From an uncultured Gammaproteobacteria bacterium (GTDB lineage Bacteria > Patescibacteriota > Microgenomatia > UBA8517), in NCBI GenBank assembly GCA_964488535.1, contig CAZAUT010000003.1, forward strand, positions 2,232 to 66,231: 64,000 nt of DNA, given 5' to 3'. The position numbers were made by a program, and so were the translations under genes. How positions within the stretch are numbered: position 1 is the first letter of the stretch; the number at the start of each line of letters is the position of its first letter. Positions 26,161 through 33,808 of this stretch are shown in pieces. The notes beneath the pieces are model-generated. The model did no database searches. It was not told the origin of the DNA and saw only the letters and a list, made by a program, of their open reading frames with translations.

Positions 26161-27660
26161 TTACCCGTTCAATTTATTGATAATTCCAATAACTTCGTAT
26201 ACTTCACGCATCGTTTCTTTTGCAACAAGTCTGGCTTTTTCGGCACCTTTTTTCAAGATATTCCTGGCTAAATCGATATTATTCTCAAGTTCATTCCTTC
26301 TCTTTCTAGCTTCGGTGAATTTGCGTTTATGGGCTTCAAACAATTTCTCCTTTACCTCTACATCACCAACTTTTCCTTCCCGGTATTTTGTTTTCAGGTC
26401 GTCAACCTCTTCTTTGTCGTCGTTTATTATATCGTGATAAATAAATACAGGATTTCCCTCAACCTTCCCCGGATCCGTTGCTTTCTTCCTATTGGGGTCC
26501 GTATAGCTTCCCATAATCTGTCTTCTTATTGCCGTTTCGTCATCAAAAATTCCAATAATATTTCCCAAACTTTTACTCATTTTTCTTTCTCCGTCAGTAC
26601 CCACAACTCTGCCATTGGCACCCGTTTTAATTAACGGCTCCGGAACCGTAAAAACCTCCCCATGAACCCTATTGAAATTTCTTGCCGTTTCGCGCGCGAA
26701 CTCAACGTGCTGTCTCTGGTCATCACCAACAGGAACCCCGTCGGGTTTATAAAGCAAAATATCTGCTGTCATTAATATGGGGTAATTAAAAAGTCCCATA
26801 TTGATATCCTCTTTTGAAACCCCTTTAGCCAGTTTGTCTTTAAAGGCATGCATCCGGTTTGCCAAGCCAAAGGGAACGTAATTGGCTAAAACAATTGCCA
26901 ACATACTGTGTTCTGGTACATCCGACTGACGGAAGTAAATCCCTTTTTCGGGATCAAGCCCCAAGGCAATGTAGTCAAAAACGTTACTGACAATACACTT
27001 TTCAAGTTCATCTTTGTCTTGAACGGTTGTTAAAGCGTGTAAATCTGCAACAAAATAAAACGATTCAACCCCTTTTTCCAATAATTCAAATTGGGGTTTA
27101 ACTGCACCGGCGTAATTACCAAGATGAAGCGTGTTCCCGCTTGGAGTAATCCCGGACAATACCCTCTTGGCTACTCTTTGCGTTACTCCTTCTTCAATAA
27201 AATCACCAATAACTGCATTGGTTACTTTCTGTAAAATTTCTGGTTTTATCTTTAAATCGTGTTCAAAGCTGCCGGTTCCACCATAGGCATATTCTCTTTC
27301 AAGAATTGTCTCATCCATCAAGGTTAATAAATGTGTGACCATTGGAGTAGCCCCCTTTAAAGCACTTGTTACTTTTTTTATTTCATCTTCTGAAGCCATC
27401 TTAAGATCTGGGGTATTGAGATAAATCTTAATTTTTTCTGTATCCAATTTATGATCGTCTCTCCTAAAAACGGCAATAAATTTTTTATCGGTTTTAAAAA
27501 TAAGTGTTGAAACACCATCTTCGGCACCAATATTTAAAAACTCCAAACCTTCCTCCACAGTTTTAATTGGTGGATGTTTGATAATTTCATATTCCACACC
27601 TAAATTATCAAGTTCTTTCTGAAGTTCCTGCAATCTTCTATTTTCAATTTTGTCTTTCAT
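26161..27660 (-). CDS. trpS: tryptophanyl-tRNA synthetase with an N-terminal YbaK/ProX-like domain
   Basis: The C-terminal ~330 aa carry TLHLGNY (HIGH), VGDDQRQHVE (TrpRS GxDQ) and KMSKS. The N-terminal ~170 aa look like a YbaK/ProX deacylase domain (EIIKHPPIKTVEE, YAYGGTGSF). Confidence 0.75.
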   Translation of the reverse strand: MKDKIENRRLQELQKELDNLGVEYEIIKHPPIKTVEEGLEFLNIGAEDGVSTLIFKTDKKFIAVFRRDDHKLDTEKIKIYLNTPDLKMASEDEIKKVTSALKGATPMVTHLLTLMDETILEREYAYGGTGSFEHDLKIKPEILQKVTNAVIGDFIEEGVTQRVAKRVLSGITPSGNTLHLGNYAGAVKPQFELLEKGVESFYFVADLHALTTVQDKDELEKCIVSNVFDYIALGLDPEKGIYFRQSDVPEHSMLAIVLANYVPFGLANRMHAFKDKLAKGVSKEDINMGLFNYPILMTADILLYKPDGVPVGDDQRQHVEFARETARNFNRVHGEVFTVPEPLIKTGANGRVVGTDGERKMSKSLGNIIGIFDDETAIRRQIMGSYTDPNRKKATDPGKVEGNPVFIYHDIINDDKEEVDDLKTKYREGKVGDVEVKEKLFEAHKRKFTEARKRRNELENNIDLARNILKKGAEKARLVAKETMREVYEVIGIINKLNG

Positions 27661-29181: not shown

Positions 29182-29455
29182 AAACAGTTCGAATAAGATA
29201 TCCTCATTATTCGGTACTCCGACTGTCTGCCGACATACCGTTGTGACGTGATGACGCTTCACTTGCGTGGTAGACTATCGCCTACCCGGCTCCGGGATCC
29301 CAACCAATCCCTTCACAGCCTTTTTTAAATTATGTTGGTATAGTACCAAAATTTCGAAATAATTGCAAACATACTGAAGTTGAAAAGAATTTTGACATGT
29401 CGATCTGCGATTGCCATAGCGATTTGAAAAATCGGTATGTCGCAAAAATTTGCTG

Positions 29456-29527
29456 TGCCAAGGGAGAGGATCGAACTCTCGACATCGCGCTTATGAAACG
29501 CGCGCTCTACCACTGAGCTACCTTGGC
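29456..29527 (-). tRNA. tRNA-Met (CAT anticodon; elongator Met or Ile2/lysidine type)
   Basis: The minus strand reads GCCAAGGTAGCTCAGTGGTAGAGCGCGCGTTTCATAAGCGCGATGTCGAGAGTTCGATCCTCTCCCTTGGCA. The cloverleaf is complete, with anticodon loop TTCATAA and no GGG/CCC initiator signature in the anticodon stem. Confidence 0.8.
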
Positions 29528-29540
29528 AATATTTTTTGCG

Positions 29541-29577
29541 CCATGAAACGATTGCTCTACCACTGAGCTACGTTGGC
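29541..29577 (-). pseudogene. truncated 5'-half copy of tRNA-Met, ending in the anticodon loop after CAT
   Basis: The minus strand reads GCCAACGTAGCTCAGTGGTAGAGCAATCGTTTCAT then GGCGC. It lies 12 nt upstream of the intact tRNA-Met. Confidence 0.5.
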
Positions 29578-29589
29578 AAAATTTGTCAT

Positions 29590-29700
29590 GAAACGACTAC
29601 CCTGCCATTACCTGCCCCGTAAAAGCGATACTTCGATGCGAGGATGTAAACCTCGAGAGAAGCGAGCTCTGTACGGGGAGCTACCCCGACATTCCCTATT
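29590..29700 (-). ncRNA. conserved noncoding element, copy E2, upstream of tRNA-Met
   Basis: cgatgcgaggatgtaaacctcgagagaagcgagctctgtacgggg shares blocks with E1 and E3. It contains the hairpin CGAGG-7nt-CCTCG. Confidence 0.3.
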
Positions 29701-29906: not shown

Positions 29907-30227
29907 TGCGGGGTAGTGTACGGCTGCACGGAAGGCTCAAAATGGGCTTCCCGCTTAGCGGGATAAATTTGGCTATATCGGTGAAACCTAAGCTTTATAG
30001 AGTATGGCAACGCCGAGGAAAGACTACGTTCAAATTTTATGAAAGTAGAATCCGTAGAGACTATACGCCAAAGCACGTTCATATAAACTGAATGTACAAG
30101 ACATAGTCCGACACTCCCAAATACCTTTTGGTATTTGACAGTAAACTGTATAGTTCATTGCAAGAAATTGGAGATTACAGAATAAGCATAATCTTCCAGA
30201 TCAGGTTCAACTCCTGACCCCGCAACA
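29907..30227 (+). ncRNA. ssrA: tmRNA (SsrA)
   Basis: The 5' acceptor strand TGCGGGG pairs with the 3' CCCCGCA. The 3' T-arm CAGGTTCAACTCCTG is near-identical to the E. coli tmRNA T-arm GGGTTCAACTCCCGC. A candidate tag ORF at 30007-30042 (GCA ACG CCG AGG AAA GAC TAC GTT CAA ATT TTA TGA, giving ATPRKDYVQIL) aligns in position and codons with E. coli ANDENYALAA. Confidence 0.6.
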
Positions 30228-30762: not shown

Positions 30763-31626
30763 ATGACGCAGGTTGTTCTTAAAGACCTTTTGCCCAAATT
30801 CATACAACACCTCAAGGATAATAAAAGATCCCCATCGACAGTATTGGCGTACAAAGCAGACCTCGATCAGCTGGTTTCATTTCTCACAGAGAAAGGTAAA
30901 GTATTGACCGAAGATGTAGAAGCATCCGACATTGAAGGGTTCCGTGATACGCTGCTAGCCAACAAGTATACGCCGAAATCCGTTTCGAGAAAACTAAATG
31001 CCGTAAAAACGTTTTTCAGGTTTTTGACCGACAACAAAATATCTCCCAAAGATCCGTCGTCTTCAGTTTCTCACCCCAAAATCGAGTCAACTATGCCGAA
31101 ATTTTTATCTGCCATTGAATACAGAGCCTTGCGGGATGTGGTCCGAAACGACGCCAGGATAGCTGCAATAATTGAATTGATCTTAGAGGCCGGATTGAGA
31201 ATTTCTGAAGTAGCCGGACTTAAAAGGGAAAACTGCAAAAACCACATCCTTAAAATTGAGGCTTATGCAACTCAGGAAGCTCGGGAAATTCCTCTCAATG
31301 CATCGGCAAAGGCTGCCCTCGACAGGTATCTTAACGAGAGGCCGGATACCAAGTCTCCCTATGTATTCGTAAGTAAAAACGGAAAACCTCTTGCCATAAG
31401 AAATATCAGAGCAGCTATCGACAGATATTTCCAAAAAGCCGAAATTCCCGGATACACCGTAAACGATCTCCGCACTACTTTTGTCGTACAAAACTTAAAA
31501 GCCGGCGTGGATCTTATTCTTCTTTCCCGTGTTTCGGGCCCCAAAAGACTCTCAACGACGGAAAGATATCTTCAGCTTGCCCAAATCACCCAATCGGGCA
31601 AGAAACAGGAGTTGGTGGAGTTGTAA
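30763..31626 (+). CDS. tyrosine site-specific recombinase (XerC/XerD/integrase family), with divergent active-site residues
   Basis: Core-binding N-domain, ARG-I in GLRISEVAGL, DLRTTF in place of HxLRH, and C-terminal LSTTERY carrying the catalytic Tyr. Confidence 0.7.
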   Translation: MTQVVLKDLLPKFIQHLKDNKRSPSTVLAYKADLDQLVSFLTEKGKVLTEDVEASDIEGFRDTLLANKYTPKSVSRKLNAVKTFFRFLTDNKISPKDPSSSVSHPKIESTMPKFLSAIEYRALRDVVRNDARIAAIIELILEAGLRISEVAGLKRENCKNHILKIEAYATQEAREIPLNASAKAALDRYLNERPDTKSPYVFVSKNGKPLAIRNIRAAIDRYFQKAEIPGYTVNDLRTTFVVQNLKAGVDLILLSRVSGPKRLSTTERYLQLAQITQSGKKQELVEL

Positions 31627-31654
31627 ACCCAATAAATTAGCCCAATTAGTCAAA

Positions 31655-32203
31655 TTAGTCCAATTTGCCTAATTTGTAGTTACTTCTTTTTCTGTACAAA
31701 TTTTCACGAAATCCACCTTCCTTCACAAACTTTTCTTGTTTTGACTTCAGCAGTTTGTCCAAAAGATAACCCTGCTTGTAACACAAACAAATCATTAAAT
31801 TTGCAAAATTTTCGGGGTTGTTAAAATCCAATCCTGTCCAATCGGCTAAATCATCCAAAGTAGTTGGTTTACCAACGCTTTCTTTAAAACTCCGTATTCT
31901 TAACACCCGCGGGTCGTTTTTGTCCCATACCGGCAAATTCCTCATCCTTAAAAAATCCTCATAATCCTCCGAAAGTTCCGAATATGAACTTCTGCTGACA
32001 CTATTAAGCATAATGTCGCTGGCTATTGAAAGTTCTTTTGAACCTTCAACAATATTCTGCTTGCCGCTTCTTGCGGCTTGAATCATCTGCTCAACGGTTC
32101 TTTTGAATTTTGGGTGAGACAAAAATCTTTCACAAAAAATGTTTGTTAAATCGTAGATCGTAACTGAAGTTCGATAAACCAGAAGTTCTTTATATCCTCC
32201 CAT
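31655..32203 (-). CDS. four-helix-bundle protein with a C-terminal suffix domain
   Basis: LLVYRTS..IYDLT...QMIQAARSGKQNIVEGS plus a ~70-aa C-terminal extension. Confidence 0.6.
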   Translation of the reverse strand: MGGYKELLVYRTSVTIYDLTNIFCERFLSHPKFKRTVEQMIQAARSGKQNIVEGSKELSIASDIMLNSVSRSSYSELSEDYEDFLRMRNLPVWDKNDPRVLRIRSFKESVGKPTTLDDLADWTGLDFNNPENFANLMICLCYKQGYLLDKLLKSKQEKFVKEGGFRENLYRKRSNYKLGKLD

Positions 32204-32407
32204 TATCTCAAGTTAGCCCAATCGGACAAATTAGTCAAATTCAGATAATCAGCCAAATTAGACAAATTAGCCACACGCCAATAAACCGTTTTTTATTTTC
32301 AACATATTTGTGGCCCGGGATGGGTTCGACCAAGTCTGACTTGGGTTACTCTCCATCGACTTCCATTTTATGACAGATACTAATCTGACATGTCAGAAAT
32401 TGAGATT

Positions 32408-32446
32408 GTGGGCGTGCATGGGATCGAACCATGGACATCTACTTTA
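32408..32446 (-). pseudogene. 3' half of a split tRNA (AAAGTAG..GTCCATGGTTCGATCCCATGCACGCCCA)
   Basis: An anticodon-stem 3' strand, variable loop, T-arm and acceptor 3' strand CACGCCC that match the 5' half at 32569-32602. Confidence 0.45.
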
Positions 32447-32462
32447 TGGCAATAAATTTCCT

Positions 32463-32534
32463 GTGGGCTGAGATGGGTTCGAACCATCGACATCTACTTT
32501 ATAAGAGTAGCGCTCTACCACTGAGCTATCAGCC
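32463..32534 (-). tRNA. tRNA-Ile (TAT anticodon)
   Basis: The minus strand reads GGGCTGATAGCTCAGTGGTAGAGCGCTACTCTTATAAAGTAGATGTCGATGGTTCGAACCCATCTCAGCCCA. The cloverleaf is complete, with anticodon loop CTTATAA. Confidence 0.7.
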
Positions 32535-32568
32535 CTTAAATTTATTGACATGTCAAACTCCGTTTGCC

Positions 32569-32602
32569 ATAAGAGTAGCGCTCTACCGCTGAGCTACACG
32601 CC
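32569..32602 (-). pseudogene. 5' half of a split tRNA (GGGCGTGTAGCTCAGCGGTAGAGCGCTACTCTTAT)
   Basis: Acceptor 5' strand, D-arm, anticodon stem, and a loop ending at CTTAT. Its 3' partner lies 125 nt downstream on the minus strand, beyond the intact tRNA-Ile. Confidence 0.45.
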
Positions 32603-32614
32603 CTCAACTTCTGT

Positions 32615-32650
32615 CATAAGAAAGGCACTCTAACCACTGAGTTACCGAGC
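32615..32650 (-). pseudogene. additional truncated tRNA 5' half (GGCTCGGTAACTCAGTGGTTAGAGTGCCTTTCTTAT)
   Basis: A third 5' half that also ends at CTTAT. No matching 3' half was found. Confidence 0.4.
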
Positions 32651-32971
32651 CGTGAGGTTATTATATCAAGAGATGTGTAAAAACTTAACACGAGGTTGAA
32701 AATTTGTTGATAGTTACTTGGTTACTTTGACAAACGCGGTACGTGATACGAAATGCGAGATACGAAATACGTAAAACGAAAATGGTTAGTAGAAATCAGA
32801 AAATTGTAATGGATAATAGAGATTGGAAAATGGTACTCAAATTTCTATTTTCAATTTTCCATTACTAATTTCTACTTTCTCTCAACCAATTTCTGTTCCT
32901 GTTTATTGTTTTTCCTCCCAATATCCTAATATCCTAGTATCTTAATATCTTCATCTCTCAACAATTTGTAT

Positions 32972-33808
32972 TCACAAATTATTGTTCACCGCTCCCCTTA
33001 TCCCCTCCCAATCCTTAACTTTTCTTATTTTGAGGTTTTTATTCCATGCGGCCCGAAGTACGGAAAGGTCAACACCTAATTTTTTGGCGTGTCCCAAAAT
33101 GGCTACGGTATCCTTGGGGAAACATTTCAAACCAAAACCTCCAAACGGAGACGCCTTCAAAAATGCCTTACCTACTCTCGGATCGGCACCTACCATCTCT
33201 GCAATTTCGTTATAATTAACCCCCAATTTCTTTGCCAGTTCCGCCATTTCATTGGCAAAAATTATTTTGGTTGCCATAAAAGTATTACTCATATATTTCA
33301 CCATCTCAGCCGATGTCGGGTCGGTTATATAAACTTTCACTTTATAGCCCATTACGTCACGGTGAAGACGGGCAATTCTGTTGGCAACATCTTCGTTAAA
33401 GGCACCGATGACAATACGGTCCGGGTGTAAAAAATCCCATGGAGCATTGATTTCGGTTAAAAATTCCGGATTCATGGCAAAATCCACTTTCGGATATTTC
33501 TTTGCGTATTTGGCGGTTGTGCCCGGAATCACAGTTGATTTAACAATTACGGGAATGTTCTTTCCGGCCAGTAGAGGAGCTATCCCGTCAACAACCTTGT
33601 CCATTATGGAAAGATCGATACCTGTGTGATCCGCTTTCATCGGTGTGGGAAGACAAAGAAAAATAAAGTCGGACTTTTCGCAGAGTTCCCCGACCGGAGT
33701 CGATCCTTTATCGGTCTTATTGTTCCACAGAATTTTATGTTTCCTGCCAAAACCCGTTCCGGTAGCCTTGCCTACTATTCCCCAACCGATAATACCAAGC
33801 GTAGCCAT
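32972..33808 (-). CDS. UDP-glucose / nucleotide-sugar 6-dehydrogenase family protein (short form)
   Basis: N-terminal Rossmann fold GIIGWGIVG and catalytic GFGLKCFPKD. At 278 aa it appears to lack the usual C-terminal UDP-binding domain. Confidence 0.65.
   Translation of the reverse strand: MATLGIIGWGIVGKATGTGFGRKHKILWNNKTDKGSTPVGELCEKSDFIFLCLPTPMKADHTGIDLSIMDKVVDGIAPLLAGKNIPVIVKSTVIPGTTAKYAKKYPKVDFAMNPEFLTEINAPWDFLHPDRIVIGAFNEDVANRIARLHRDVMGYKVKVYITDPTSAEMVKYMSNTFMATKIIFANEMAELAKKLGVNYNEIAEMVGADPRVGKAFLKASPFGGFGLKCFPKDTVAILGHAKKLGVDLSVLRAAWNKNLKIRKVKDWEGIRGAVNNNL

What the first reader, a model, noticed from the sequence alone, without database searches (positions are those of the whole stretch)
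32408..32650. Nested and split tRNA-Ile(UAU) locus: an intact tRNA sits between the two halves of another, plus a third 5' half
Reading the minus strand in order gives a 5' half C (ending CTTAT), a 5' half B (GGGCGTG..CTTAT), a 34-nt spacer, an intact tRNA-Ile(TAT), a 16-nt spacer, and then the 3' half of B (AAAGTAG..CACGCCCA). The B halves have perfectly matching acceptor stems and would rebuild a second tRNA with loop CTTATAA. Every 5' piece stops at the same anticodon-loop position. The segment separating the B halves is bounded by the 6-bp inverted repeat TGGCAA / TTGCCA, and it contains a complementary 10-12 nt pair (GTCAATAAATTT / AAATTTATTGCC). That is reminiscent of the leader pairing of archaeal split tRNAs. 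It could equally be scars from repeated site-specific recombination in the anticodon loop.
Basis: seen in the sequence. Interest (0 to 1): 0.7.

Follow-up and report, generated by a model that had tools for sequence, protein, structure and literature searches.

The report
Russian-doll nested tRNA genes in bacteria
One working isoleucine tRNA gene sits inside the anticodon loop of a second tRNA gene, which sits inside a third, and the same stacking recurs in many ultra-small (Patescibacteria) bacteria, so it appears to be an undescribed way of replacing tRNA genes rather than a one-off oddity.

Summary
On the minus strand, 32651-32311 is a gap-free 341-nt nest: C5' | frame | B5' | frame | intact tRNA-Ile(UAU) A | frame | B3' | frame | C3'.

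Every break lies between anticodon-loop positions 35 and 36. The window is from a Woesebacteria relative, and this is the conserved chromosomal tRNA-Ile locus.

The same nesting appears in about 13 of 86 orthologous loci from other genomes and in 21 metagenome contigs. It also occurs at tRNA-Met (in this window too) and tRNA-Ala.

Close relatives show every stage: un-nested, 2, 3 and 4 or more layers. Two shared two-hairpin "frames" occur in different nesting orders.

Outer layers decay with depth. Joined halves are recognised as a tRNA in 17 of 21 first outer layers and in 0 of 4 deeper ones.

Best reading: promoter-less tRNA cassettes were inserted serially into the resident gene. Only the innermost copy works, and the outer halves are co-transcribed relics. 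How insertion happens is inferred, not shown.

Archaeal-type split tRNA, group I intron and integrase scars are not supported. I found no published description.

The parts
32660..32668 (-). Extended -10 promoter element TGATATAAT. It lies 8 nt upstream of the outermost 5' half and is the only promoter-like element I identified for the nest.
   Evidence: Read from the sequence. The block CTTCTTG(G/A)TATAATAAC.TCAC is conserved in relatives and always abuts the outermost 5' half, whatever tRNA type that is. The generic promoter scan did not list it, because there is no -35 match.
32617..32651 (-). C5': 5' half (positions 1-35) of the outermost, oldest tRNA-Ile(UAU). It ends in CTTA.
   Evidence: E=0.005. 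An intact ortholog is the functional gene in L142/L148, L147 and L154.
32604..32616 (-). Frame F2, left arm (TGACAGAAGTTGA).
   Evidence: It pairs with 32371-32408. It is homologous to frames in L146, L078, L124 and L121, and shows covariation.
32570..32603 (-). B5': 5' half of the middle tRNA-Ile(UAU).
   Evidence: E=8e-10. B5'+B3' is called tRNA-Ile(tat). Near-identical intact gene in L078 and a diverged intact ortholog in L146.
32536..32569 (-). Frame F1, left arm. It includes a small hairpin around the palindrome TTGACATGTCAA.
   Evidence: It is homologous to F1 in L146, L147 and L149/L150.
32464..32535 (-). A: intact tRNA-Ile(UAU), the only complete and presumably functional gene.
   Evidence: ARAGORN and Rfam at 75.6 bits.
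32447..32463 (-). Frame F1, right arm (CAGGAAATTTATTGCCA).
   Evidence: Complementary to the left arm (I6).
32409..32446 (-). B3': 3' half (positions 36-73) of the middle tRNA.
   Evidence: (E=1.6e-9).
32371..32408 (-). Frame F2, right arm: anti-leader, palindrome TCTGACATGTCAGA and a closing hairpin ending TCTGTCA.
   Evidence: (I24, I25).
32311..32370 (-). C3': 3' half of the outermost tRNA. It is degraded by a 22-nt T-loop insert (32331-32352), a G-U pair in the acceptor stem and one anticodon-stem mismatch.
   Evidence: The L146 ortholog lacks the insert. L154 carries a homologous insert in a downstream 3' half.
29393..29690 (-). A second nest of the same style around tRNA-Met(CAU). Approximate pieces:
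- E5', with a D-loop insert: 29690-29589.
- Frame: 29588-29578.
- D5': 29577-29544.
- Frame: 29543-29528.
- Intact tRNA-Met: 29527-29456.
- Frame: 29455-29438.
- Degraded D3': 29437-29412.
- Trailing palindrome: to 29393.
   Evidence: The Met locus shows the same alternation of two tRNA types in L146 and L142.

Best explanation
The locus is a stack of relics left by repeated replacement of the single chromosomal tRNA-Ile(UAU) gene.

**The unit.** Each replacement unit is a promoter-less cassette: a complete tRNA gene flanked by a short two-hairpin frame. It ends up exactly between anticodon-loop nucleotides A35 and U36 of the resident tRNA-Ile gene. That splits and kills the resident gene while supplying a working copy that uses the resident promoter.

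**The history here.** It happened at least twice:
1. C was split by frame F2 carrying B.
2. B was then split by frame F1 carrying A.

**Expression.** Only A is functional. C5' and B5' are transcribed as its 5' leader, and B3' and C3' as its trailer. RNase P and the 3'-end processing enzymes would release A.

**What is shown.**
- The anatomy.
- Recurrence in many genomes.
- The fixed junction.
- Intact orthologs of B and C in relatives.
- Decay with depth.
- Structural conservation of the frames.

**What is inferred.**
- Layers are added when a split allele converts the intact inner gene of another allele by homologous recombination after DNA uptake, with the tRNA halves acting as homology arms.
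- Unequal crossing-over then makes the 5'-only and 3'-only arrays.
- The first creation of each cassette needs an unknown event that respects the dyad TTA|TAA of the loop.
- The frames persist because they insulate the folding of the inner tRNA from its homologous outer halves.
For: **Anatomy.** Contiguous nest, matched stems and a nested fold.

**Native locus.** tRNA-Met - DivIC - xer - tRNA-Ile - VirD4-like ATPase is syntenic in about 48-60 loci.

**Recurrence.**
- About 13 of 86 orthologous loci carry extra halves.
- There are 21 further metagenome contigs.
- The same pattern occurs at tRNA-Met and tRNA-Ala.

**Junction.** It is always at an A|T step: 35|36 in Ile and Met. It is unambiguous where the insert starts with C or G (L039, L041, L138, L140).

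**Series in close relatives (Xer 75-80% identical).**
- L151-153 and L156/157: un-nested.
- L142 and L154: C intact.
- L147 and L149: B > F1 > C intact.
- L146: B > F1 > C > F2 > B intact.
- Window: C > F2 > B > F1 > A.

The same cassettes therefore occur in different orders, and B and C each exist intact elsewhere.

**Age gradient.** Joined outer layers are recognised as tRNA in 17 of 21 at depth 1 and 0 of 4 at depth 2 or more. My hypergeometric calculation from those counts gives p=0.006.

**Like into like.** Every joined outer layer that ARAGORN recognised has the inner tRNA's anticodon. This is expected if insertion into a single-copy tRNA gene is lethal without a replacement.

**Promoter.** It is conserved and always abuts the outermost half.

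**Frames.**
- Leader/trailer pairing beats shuffles in 22 of 32 layers, and first and last bases are complementary in 30 of 32.
- The F2 family has 9 pairs with compensatory changes, and no shuffle of 500 reached that.

**Signs of recombination.**
- Layers within a genome share anticodon stems (L124, L125, L149).
- L146 has duplicated identical 5' halves.
- Arrays of 5' halves only or 3' halves only occur in L107, L142, L154 and L062.
Against: - No transcript data exist, so "only A matures" is inference.
- Most depth-1 outer layers are still perfect cloverleaves. L123 and L126 differ by three compensatory pairs in the outer tRNA. That could mean selection on outer helices rather than recent insertion.
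- The F2 cassette lies in outer tRNAs with four different anticodon stems. Pure homologous recombination from one donor allele does not explain this easily.
- One frame family carries Ile and Met cargo in the same genome (L129).
- Frame ends and centre are invariant half-sites, TGACA ... TGACA|TGTCA ... TGTCA. This hints at a sequence- or structure-specific enzyme that I could not identify.
- No free, circular or tandem cassette form was found.
Confidence: 0.6

Rival explanations
1. Each layer is added by a dedicated mobile-element mechanism rather than by allele-to-allele recombination. The cassette would be a protein-free, non-autonomous element moved in trans. Candidate enzymes are a single-strand hairpin-recognising one (HUH/Y1 transposase, or a tyrosine recombinase acting on folded single-stranded DNA as in integron attC or CTX phage) or a nuclease that cuts the loop dyad. 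The outcome, relic halves with only the inner tRNA functional, is the same.
For: - Frames are linked to their cargo, while the outer tRNA varies. F2 with a GGGCGTG-type tRNA sits in four different outer tRNAs.
- The two-hairpin frame has an invariant mismatch at position 3 in 7 of 7 members. Its termini and centre are perfectly complementary when "crossed", as expected if a circular form had two palindromic sites.
- Insertion is exactly at the dyad, with no target duplication.
- One frame family serves Ile and Met.
- GCGAAGC-type DNA mini-hairpins occur in frames.
- Small GIY-YIG nuclease genes lie next to tRNA loci in about 17 related loci.
Against: - Cassettes are not dispersed. The frame motif is confined to tRNA nests.
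- No circular or tandem junction was found in the fetched loci. Phage contigs held no copy of the tRNA's anticodon arm, apart from one chance coding-sequence match, and no F2 frame motifs.
- No transposase was found near the nest.
- The neighbouring xer gene is present whether or not the locus is nested.
- A sequence-specific enzyme would not by itself explain why cargo and target always share the anticodon. Selection can explain that.
Confidence: 0.3
2. The nest is a functional multi-tRNA precursor. The inserts would act as enzymatically removed introns or split-tRNA joints, so that B and C are also matured, as in archaeal split or multi-intron tRNAs.
For: - Exact junctions.
- Closing stems next to the junction.
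- Leader/trailer helices with covariation.
- Most first outer layers still rebuild a canonical tRNA.
- Compensatory differences between the L123 and L126 outer tRNAs.
Against: - There is no bulge-helix-bulge. UUA pairs with UAA and runs straight into the closing stem, so both cut sites would lie opposite each other in a helix (sequence).
- No ribozyme or intron family matches the nest, and A35 is not the usual U-1 of group I introns.
- Deeper layers are degraded.
- The T-loop and D-loop inserts leave a 6-nt T-loop when removed.
- Outer and inner tRNAs are redundant, with the same anticodon.
- Some outer layers lack a 3' or a 5' partner (L041, L027, L142, L154).
Confidence: 0.07
3. The halves are attachment-site scars of integrase-driven genomic islands that repeatedly entered and left the tRNA gene.
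For: A tyrosine recombinase gene lies at 30763-31626, within 700 nt of the nest. tRNA anticodon loops are classical integration sites (my own knowledge).
Against: - The recombinase is a conserved Xer-like neighbour in about 48 loci, nested or not.
- Halves are 13-38 nt apart, not separated by islands.
- The order is mirrored, whereas island scars give one-sided tandem fragments.
- Acceptor stems differ between layers, so the hybrid tRNA formed at an attachment site would not pair.
- Cumulative GC skew is monotonic, so there is no sign of a terminus or dif region here.
Confidence: 0.04
4. The pattern is local duplication or deletion of a tandem tRNA array, or an assembly artefact.
For: Some loci do show plain tandem repeats of halves (L107, L062 Cys).
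Against: - Deletion from a tandem array cannot give the mirrored order with matched but layer-specific acceptor stems.
- The same architecture appears in independent assemblies made with different assemblers, and on contigs up to hundreds of kilobases.
Confidence: 0.02

Closest known systems
Archaeal split and multi-intron tRNA genes (Nanoarchaeum split tRNAs; Thermoproteales tRNAs with introns in several loops)
   Same: - The tRNA gene is interrupted in the anticodon loop.
- Complementary sequences flank the break.
- Extra interruptions occur in D and T loops.
- Matching halves rebuild a cloverleaf.
   Different: - The interruption here is itself a complete tRNA gene.
- The halves are contiguous behind one promoter.
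- There is no bulge-helix-bulge.
- The host is a bacterium.
- Outer copies decay, so they look like pseudogenes rather than spliced genes.
Group I introns at position 35/36 of Patescibacteria tRNA genes (Nakagawa et al. 2026, PMC13011429)
   Same: Same phylum and same loop position (35/36). The insertion into a tRNA gene leaves tRNA function intact.
   Different: - No catalytic core.
- A35, not U, precedes the insert.
- Function is rescued by bringing a replacement gene, not by splicing.
- The window also holds a true group I intron, in tRNA-fMet at 33/34.
tRNA-gene fragments left by integrative genomic islands
   Same: Partial tRNA copies lie next to an intact tRNA, and a tyrosine recombinase gene is nearby.
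   Different: - There is no island between the repeats.
- Both 5' and 3' halves are present, in mirrored order.
- A whole tRNA is replaced, rather than one side being restored.
- The recombinase is a conserved neighbour even at un-nested loci.
Integron gene cassettes and CTX-phage integration through folded single-stranded DNA
   Same: - Promoter-less cassettes that rely on a resident promoter.
- Imperfect hairpins with conserved mismatches.
- The cassette start is complementary to the cassette end.
   Different: - The cargo is a tRNA and the target is a tRNA loop.
- There is no attI site or IntI gene.
- Stacking is concentric, not linear.
- No enzyme has been identified.
Intervening sequences (IVS) of 23S rRNA
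   Same: An insert closed by a stem sits inside a structured RNA gene and is removed at RNA level without re-ligation. A four-helix-bundle protein of the family NCBI names (TIGR02436) — from memory, the type encoded in 23S rRNA intervening sequences — is encoded right next to the nest.
   Different: Fragmented rRNA still works, whereas a tRNA cut in its anticodon loop does not. That is why the replacement tRNA is needed.
Intron-less homing by free-standing GIY-YIG endonucleases (phage T4 SegB in the tRNA gene cluster)
   Same: Possible spread by conversion of a homologous tRNA region. Small GIY-YIG genes sit next to tRNA loci in relatives.
   Different: No such gene was found by similarity search in the window. 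No cleavage site is known, and the association has not been tested.

Membership tests
Bacterial tRNA gene (for A) | Cloverleaf with canonical loops, recognised by covariance and heuristic models. | tested here: met
   ARAGORN calls tRNA-Ile(tat). Rfam RF00005 scores 75.6 bits against a gathering score of 29.
Archaeal-type split or BHB-intron tRNA | Bulge-helix-bulge motif at both exon-intron junctions. | tested here: not met
   In the sequence and the fold, UUA/UAA and the closing stem form a continuous helix with only C32 unpaired. There are no 3-nt bulges 4 bp apart.
Archaeal-type split or BHB-intron tRNA | Halves (split type) encoded at separate loci with their own promoters. | tested here: not met
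   All pieces are contiguous behind one conserved -10 element.
Archaeal-type split or BHB-intron tRNA | Splicing endonuclease plus RtcB-type ligase in the genome, and mature joined tRNA. | not testable with these tools
   Only 64 kb of the genome is available, and there is no transcript data.
Group I intron in a tRNA | Catalytic core matching RF00028, with U at -1 and G at the intron's 3' end. | tested here: not met
   Nothing matches in 32300-32660 even at E<=10. The inserts follow A35 and end in A, C or G.
Genomic-island attachment scars | An island with its integrase bounded by a direct repeat of part of the tRNA. | tested here: not met
   Spacers are 13-38 nt. The recombinase is syntenic in nested and un-nested loci. 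The order is mirrored.
MITE or IS-type transposon | Terminal inverted repeats. | tested here: met
   Closing pairs of 4-8 bp occur in 19 of 32 layers. First and last bases are complementary in 30 of 32 layers.
MITE or IS-type transposon | Target-site duplication and many dispersed copies. | tested here: not met
   Joined halves restore exactly CTTATAA. The frame motif is confined to tRNA nests.
Integron cassette | attC hairpin, an attI site and an IntI integrase with its extra domain. | tested here: inconclusive
   The frames are imperfect hairpins with an invariant mismatch. The neighbouring recombinase scores 33 bits against the 265-bit cut-off of the integron-integrase model, and there is no linear array.
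Nested tRNA cassette (proposed here) | A complete tRNA plus two-hairpin frame lies at an A|T step of the anticodon loop of a tRNA with the same anticodon. Outer halves rebuild a tRNA when joined. | tested here: met
   Seen in the window, in 17 of 25 outer layers elsewhere, and in the F2 family alignment.

The most novel reading that the evidence does not exclude
The nest is a working precursor. Patescibacteria would then have an enzymatic, non-ribozyme way to cut at the base of the frame helices and re-join A35 to U36. Several tRNAs would mature from one Russian-doll transcript, and the cassettes would be mobile protein-spliced tRNA introns whose cargo is another tRNA. That would be a bacterial counterpart of archaeal tRNA splicing and intron transposition.
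Probability: 0.07. Interest if true: 0.95.

Novelty: categorically new. Interest (0 to 1): 0.8.

Why it matters
**A new kind of disrupted tRNA gene.** The known kinds are intron-containing, split, tri-split and permuted. This adds a nested kind, in Bacteria, recurring across a large phylum.

**A gene-replacement logic I have not seen described.** An incoming tRNA destroys the resident essential gene, takes over its promoter and makes itself indispensable. The next cassette can then do the same to it, and the locus keeps a readable fossil record of each turnover.

**An open mechanistic question that becomes testable.** How can DNA be placed exactly at the dyad of a 7-nt loop, with no duplication and no encoded enzyme?

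**Practical consequences.**
- Standard tRNA finders report only the inner gene. The halves go unannotated, or could be mistaken for attachment sites of genomic islands.
- Layer order could serve as a lineage marker in uncultured Woesebacteria and their relatives.

Tried and rejected
- **Phage origin.** The only phage-database hits were generic tRNA similarity. The exact anticodon-arm 16-mer hit one viral contig, in a coding region with no tRNA. Two frame-specific patterns found nothing in viral contigs.
- **Cyanobacterial origin.** This was my first guess. It was rejected by synteny with Patescibacteria loci and by Xer homologs named Woesebacteria.
- **Island integrase.** Rejected because the xer-like gene is a conserved neighbour and scores far below the integron and XerC/D cut-offs.
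- **Terminus or dif hot spot.** There is no skew switch in the window.
- **Genome-wide REP or MITE family.**
  - TGACAGA is only marginally enriched.
  - The third TGACATGTCA copy appears to lie in coding sequence.
  - The CCTGCC..GGCAGG hairpins are few and mostly sit inside dead halves.
- **Circular or tandem cassette junctions.** None were found among about 1.1 Mb of fetched loci.
- **Automated layer finder.** Thresholds of 14-15 gave many false layers in AT-rich flanks. Only scores of 16 or more, or hand-checked layers, were used.
- **Exact-protein look-up of the window's Xer.** It returned nothing, although an identical protein was later listed by the homology search.
- **Literature.** Six completed searches and two papers read found no report of a tRNA gene inside a tRNA gene.

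Full report
**1. What is in the window**

Read on the minus strand, 32651-32311 is one uninterrupted 341-nt block made of nine abutting pieces.

| Piece | Coordinates |
|---|---|
| C5' | 32651-32617 |
| Frame F2, left | 32616-32604 |
| B5' | 32603-32570 |
| Frame F1, left | 32569-32536 |
| A, intact tRNA-Ile(UAU) | 32535-32464 |
| Frame F1, right | 32463-32447 |
| B3' | 32446-32409 |
| Frame F2, right | 32408-32371 |
| C3' | 32370-32311 |

- A is called by ARAGORN and by Rfam at 75.6 bits.
- A profile of 86 related tRNA-Ile genes finds B5' (E=8e-10), B3' (E=1.6e-9), C5' (E=0.005) and, weakly, C3'.
- B5'+B3' joined at CTTA|TAAAG is called tRNA-Ile(tat).
- C is called only after a 22-nt insert in its T loop (32352-32331) is removed.
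- The whole stretch is predicted to fold as three concentric cloverleaves (z=-4.5).
- An extended -10 element (TGATATAAT, 32668-32660) sits 8 nt upstream of C5'. I saw no promoter-like element in front of B or A.

**2. Whose locus this is**

- The flanking 774-aa VirD4-like ATPase gene and the 287-aa xer-like gene are syntenic with tRNA-Ile(UAU) in some 48-60 fetched loci. These loci are mostly Levy-, Roizman-, Gottesman- and Woesebacteria.
- The closest Xer homologs are named Woesebacteria.
- This is therefore the native chromosomal tRNA-Ile(UAU) gene of a Microgenomatia genome, not an island or a phage.
- The recombinase is present whether or not the locus is nested.
- GC skew shows no terminus.

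**3. It recurs**

- A scan of one genome per species for the anticodon-arm 16-mer gave 119 loci, with 86 intact tRNA-Ile(UAU) genes.
- About 13 of those 86 carry extra halves arranged the same way: L005, L010, L013, L027, L031, L039, L041, L062, L078, L102, L105, L107 and L116.
- A metagenome scan for "5' half, short spacer, new tRNA start" gave 21 more contigs.
- The same style occurs at tRNA-Met in this window (29690-29393), in L129 and in L146. It also occurs at tRNA-Ala in L062.
- In every joined outer layer that ARAGORN recognised, the outer tRNA has the same anticodon as the inner one.

**4. The junction**

- Where the insert begins with T and ends with A, the break is ambiguous by one base.
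- Where it begins with C or G it is unambiguous: the 5' piece ends CTTA and the 3' piece starts TAA or TAC. Examples are L039, L013, L136, L139, L140, L127, L122, L138 and L041.
- That places the break between positions 35 and 36.
- tRNA-Met breaks at TTCA|TAA. The tRNA-Ala(CGC) case breaks at GCA|T, which is 37|38.
- The common factor is an A|T step. In Ile it is the centre of the small palindrome TTA|TAA.
- There is no target duplication and no loss of bases.
[quoted passage not shown] These inserts, however, have no ribozyme core and follow A rather than U.

**5. The frames**

- Each insert is leader, tRNA, trailer.
- Leader and trailer pair better than shuffled controls in 22 of 32 layers.
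- The first and last bases are complementary in 30 of 32 layers.
- In the best-sampled family (F2; seven members from window, L146, L078, L124, L121 and L031) a two-hairpin model is 87% paired. Nine pairs show changes on both sides, and no shuffle of 500 reached that.
- The third pair from the base of each hairpin is a mismatch in 7 of 7 members.
- The "crossed" pairing is 96% complementary. It matches insert start with insert end, and the two arms of the central palindrome TGACA|TGTCA with each other.
- The motif is essentially confined to tRNA nests.
- Frame families are lineage-specific. One family (TAGCG...GATATATCGC...GCGCTA) carries both Ile and Met cargo in the same genome (L129).

**6. 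A time series in close relatives**

Using Xer homologs 75-80% identical to the window's, I fetched the same locus from nine further lineages.

| Loci | State |
|---|---|
| L151-153, L156/157 | A single un-nested gene |
| L142/L148, L154 | The C-type tRNA intact right behind the conserved promoter, with only 3' halves downstream |
| L147, L149/150 | B > F1 > C (intact) |
| L146 | ...B > F1 > C > F2 > B (intact), plus a still older 3' half whose intact version is the gene of L151-153 |
| Window | C > F2 > B > F1 > A |

- B and C both exist as intact genes at this locus in relatives. A near-identical intact copy of B also exists in L078.
- The same two cassettes occur in opposite nesting orders.
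- The window's C is visibly more degraded than L146's C.
- The Met locus alternates two types in the same way.

**7. Which copies work**

- Joined outer layers are recognised as tRNA in 17 of 21 cases at depth 1 and in 0 of 4 cases at depth 2 or more. My hypergeometric calculation gives p=0.006.
- Several deep layers lack one partner altogether (L041, L027, the window's Met E).
- Dead halves collect small inserts in the D loop and T loop. A recurring example is AGAGTAACC... just after T-stem position 53, seen in window C3', L146, L154 and a Met half in L142. Removing it leaves a 6-nt T loop, so these are not clean introns.
- This outward decay, the redundancy of anticodons and the single promoter all indicate that only the innermost gene is functional. 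The outer halves would be co-transcribed debris.

**8. How layers are added (inference)**

*For homologous recombination.*
- An intact inner tRNA is homologous to the split outer tRNA of another allele.
- Ordinary recombination after DNA uptake, with the halves as arms, would copy the whole insert into it.
- Two mutually invading alleles (B > F1 > C and C > F2 > B) would generate exactly the alternating stacks seen in the window and L146.
- Signs of active recombination are concerted anticodon stems between layers (L124, L125, L149), duplicated identical 5' halves (L146), and arrays of 5' halves only or 3' halves only (L107, L142, L154, L062).

*Against recombination as the whole story.*
- F2 lies in four outer tRNAs with different anticodon stems.
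- Frames are shared between isotypes.
- The termini are invariant half-sites.
- The primary creation of cassettes therefore probably needs a structure-directed event or enzyme that I could not identify.
- No transposase is nearby.
- Small GIY-YIG nuclease genes next to tRNA loci in relatives are a lead only.

**9. Rivals and novelty**

- Archaeal-type splicing is not supported: there is no bulge-helix-bulge, and the outer layers decay.
- A group I intron is excluded.
- Island scars are not supported: there is no island, the order is mirrored, and the recombinase is housekeeping-like.
- A tandem-array deletion cannot give mirrored, stem-matched halves.
- An artefact is excluded by recurrence in independent assemblies.
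- Searches of the paper library found no description of a tRNA gene nested in a tRNA gene.
- I therefore rate it as a new kind of tRNA gene organisation. Its mechanism is only partly resolved.

Noticed in passing
window 29393-29690 (minus strand): tRNA-Met(CAU) at 29456-29527 has its own nest. Two 5' halves lie upstream (D5' 29577-29544; E5' about 29690-29589). A leader/trailer pair (GCGCAAAAAAT / AAATTTTTGCG) flanks it, and a shortened 3' remnant and a trailing GACATGTC palindrome follow. Relatives L146, L142 and L129 have Met nests too.
   Followed up: partly
window 29907-30227 (plus strand): A tRNA with anticodon CAU (initiator-like) is split by a 249-nt group I intron after U33 (33/34). 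Its exons are 29907-29937 and 30187-30227. ARAGORN miscalls it tRNA-Leu(caa), the same miscall reported for Patescibacteria in PMC13011429. L146 has the intron-less gene on the other strand. A 13-nt copy of its 5' end (TGCGGGGTAGTGT) lies upstream at about 29794 and is also present in L146.
   Followed up: partly
window 32331-32352; also L146, L154, L142 (Met half), L031: A small insert starting AGAGTAACC and ending in a hairpin recurs just after the 5' strand of the T stem in dead 3' halves of different tRNAs and genomes. It looks like a second, T-loop-specific small element or a recurrent scar.
   Followed up: partly
window about 29611-29676; also L031, L142, L146, L027, L107, L136, L041: Dead 5' halves often carry a D-loop insert. 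Some are GC-rich perfect hairpins (CCTGCCTG..CAGGCAGG). Others are longer pieces ending in ..GGGGCAGG. L146's D-loop insert contains the GACATGTC motif.
   Followed up: partly
window 31626-32290: A 182-aa ORF (31655-32203, minus strand) matches four-helix-bundle protein models. From memory, this is the kind encoded in 23S rRNA intervening sequences. It is bracketed by inverted arrays of 9-nt repeats (31626-31692 and 32193-32290). The ORF has no tblastn match in any other fetched locus, so it looks like a separate insertion next to the nest.
   Followed up: partly
window 26161-27660 (minus strand): A 499-aa class I aminoacyl-tRNA synthetase (Trp/Tyr family) carries an N-terminal YbaK-type editing domain. 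In relatives L146 and L153 the synthetase is 329-334 aa and is followed by a separate tRNA-binding-domain protein.
   Followed up: no
L003, L020, L062, L152, L154/L155 and about 10 other loci: Small GIY-YIG nuclease genes (79-100 aa) lie close to tRNA genes. One sits directly upstream of a tRNA-Cys followed by three tandem 3' halves (L062). None was found in the window.
   Followed up: partly
window 32972-33808 (minus strand); L146, L147, L153, L154: The UDP-glucose dehydrogenase-like ORF lacks the first 60 or so profile positions. It is nevertheless conserved at exactly 278 aa in relatives, so it is probably a genuine short form rather than a truncated pseudogene.
   Followed up: no
L001, L005, L010, L039, L078 and many others: Many assemblies labelled "uncultured Gammaproteobacteria" share gene order and 65-73% nucleotide identity with Patescibacteria loci and with this window. 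Those labels are probably wrong.
   Followed up: no
L126/L129/L133 frames; L062 tRNA-Cys 3' halves: Frames and degraded T arms contain GCGAAGC. From memory, this is the sequence of a very stable DNA mini-hairpin, which hints that single-stranded DNA structure matters.
   Followed up: no
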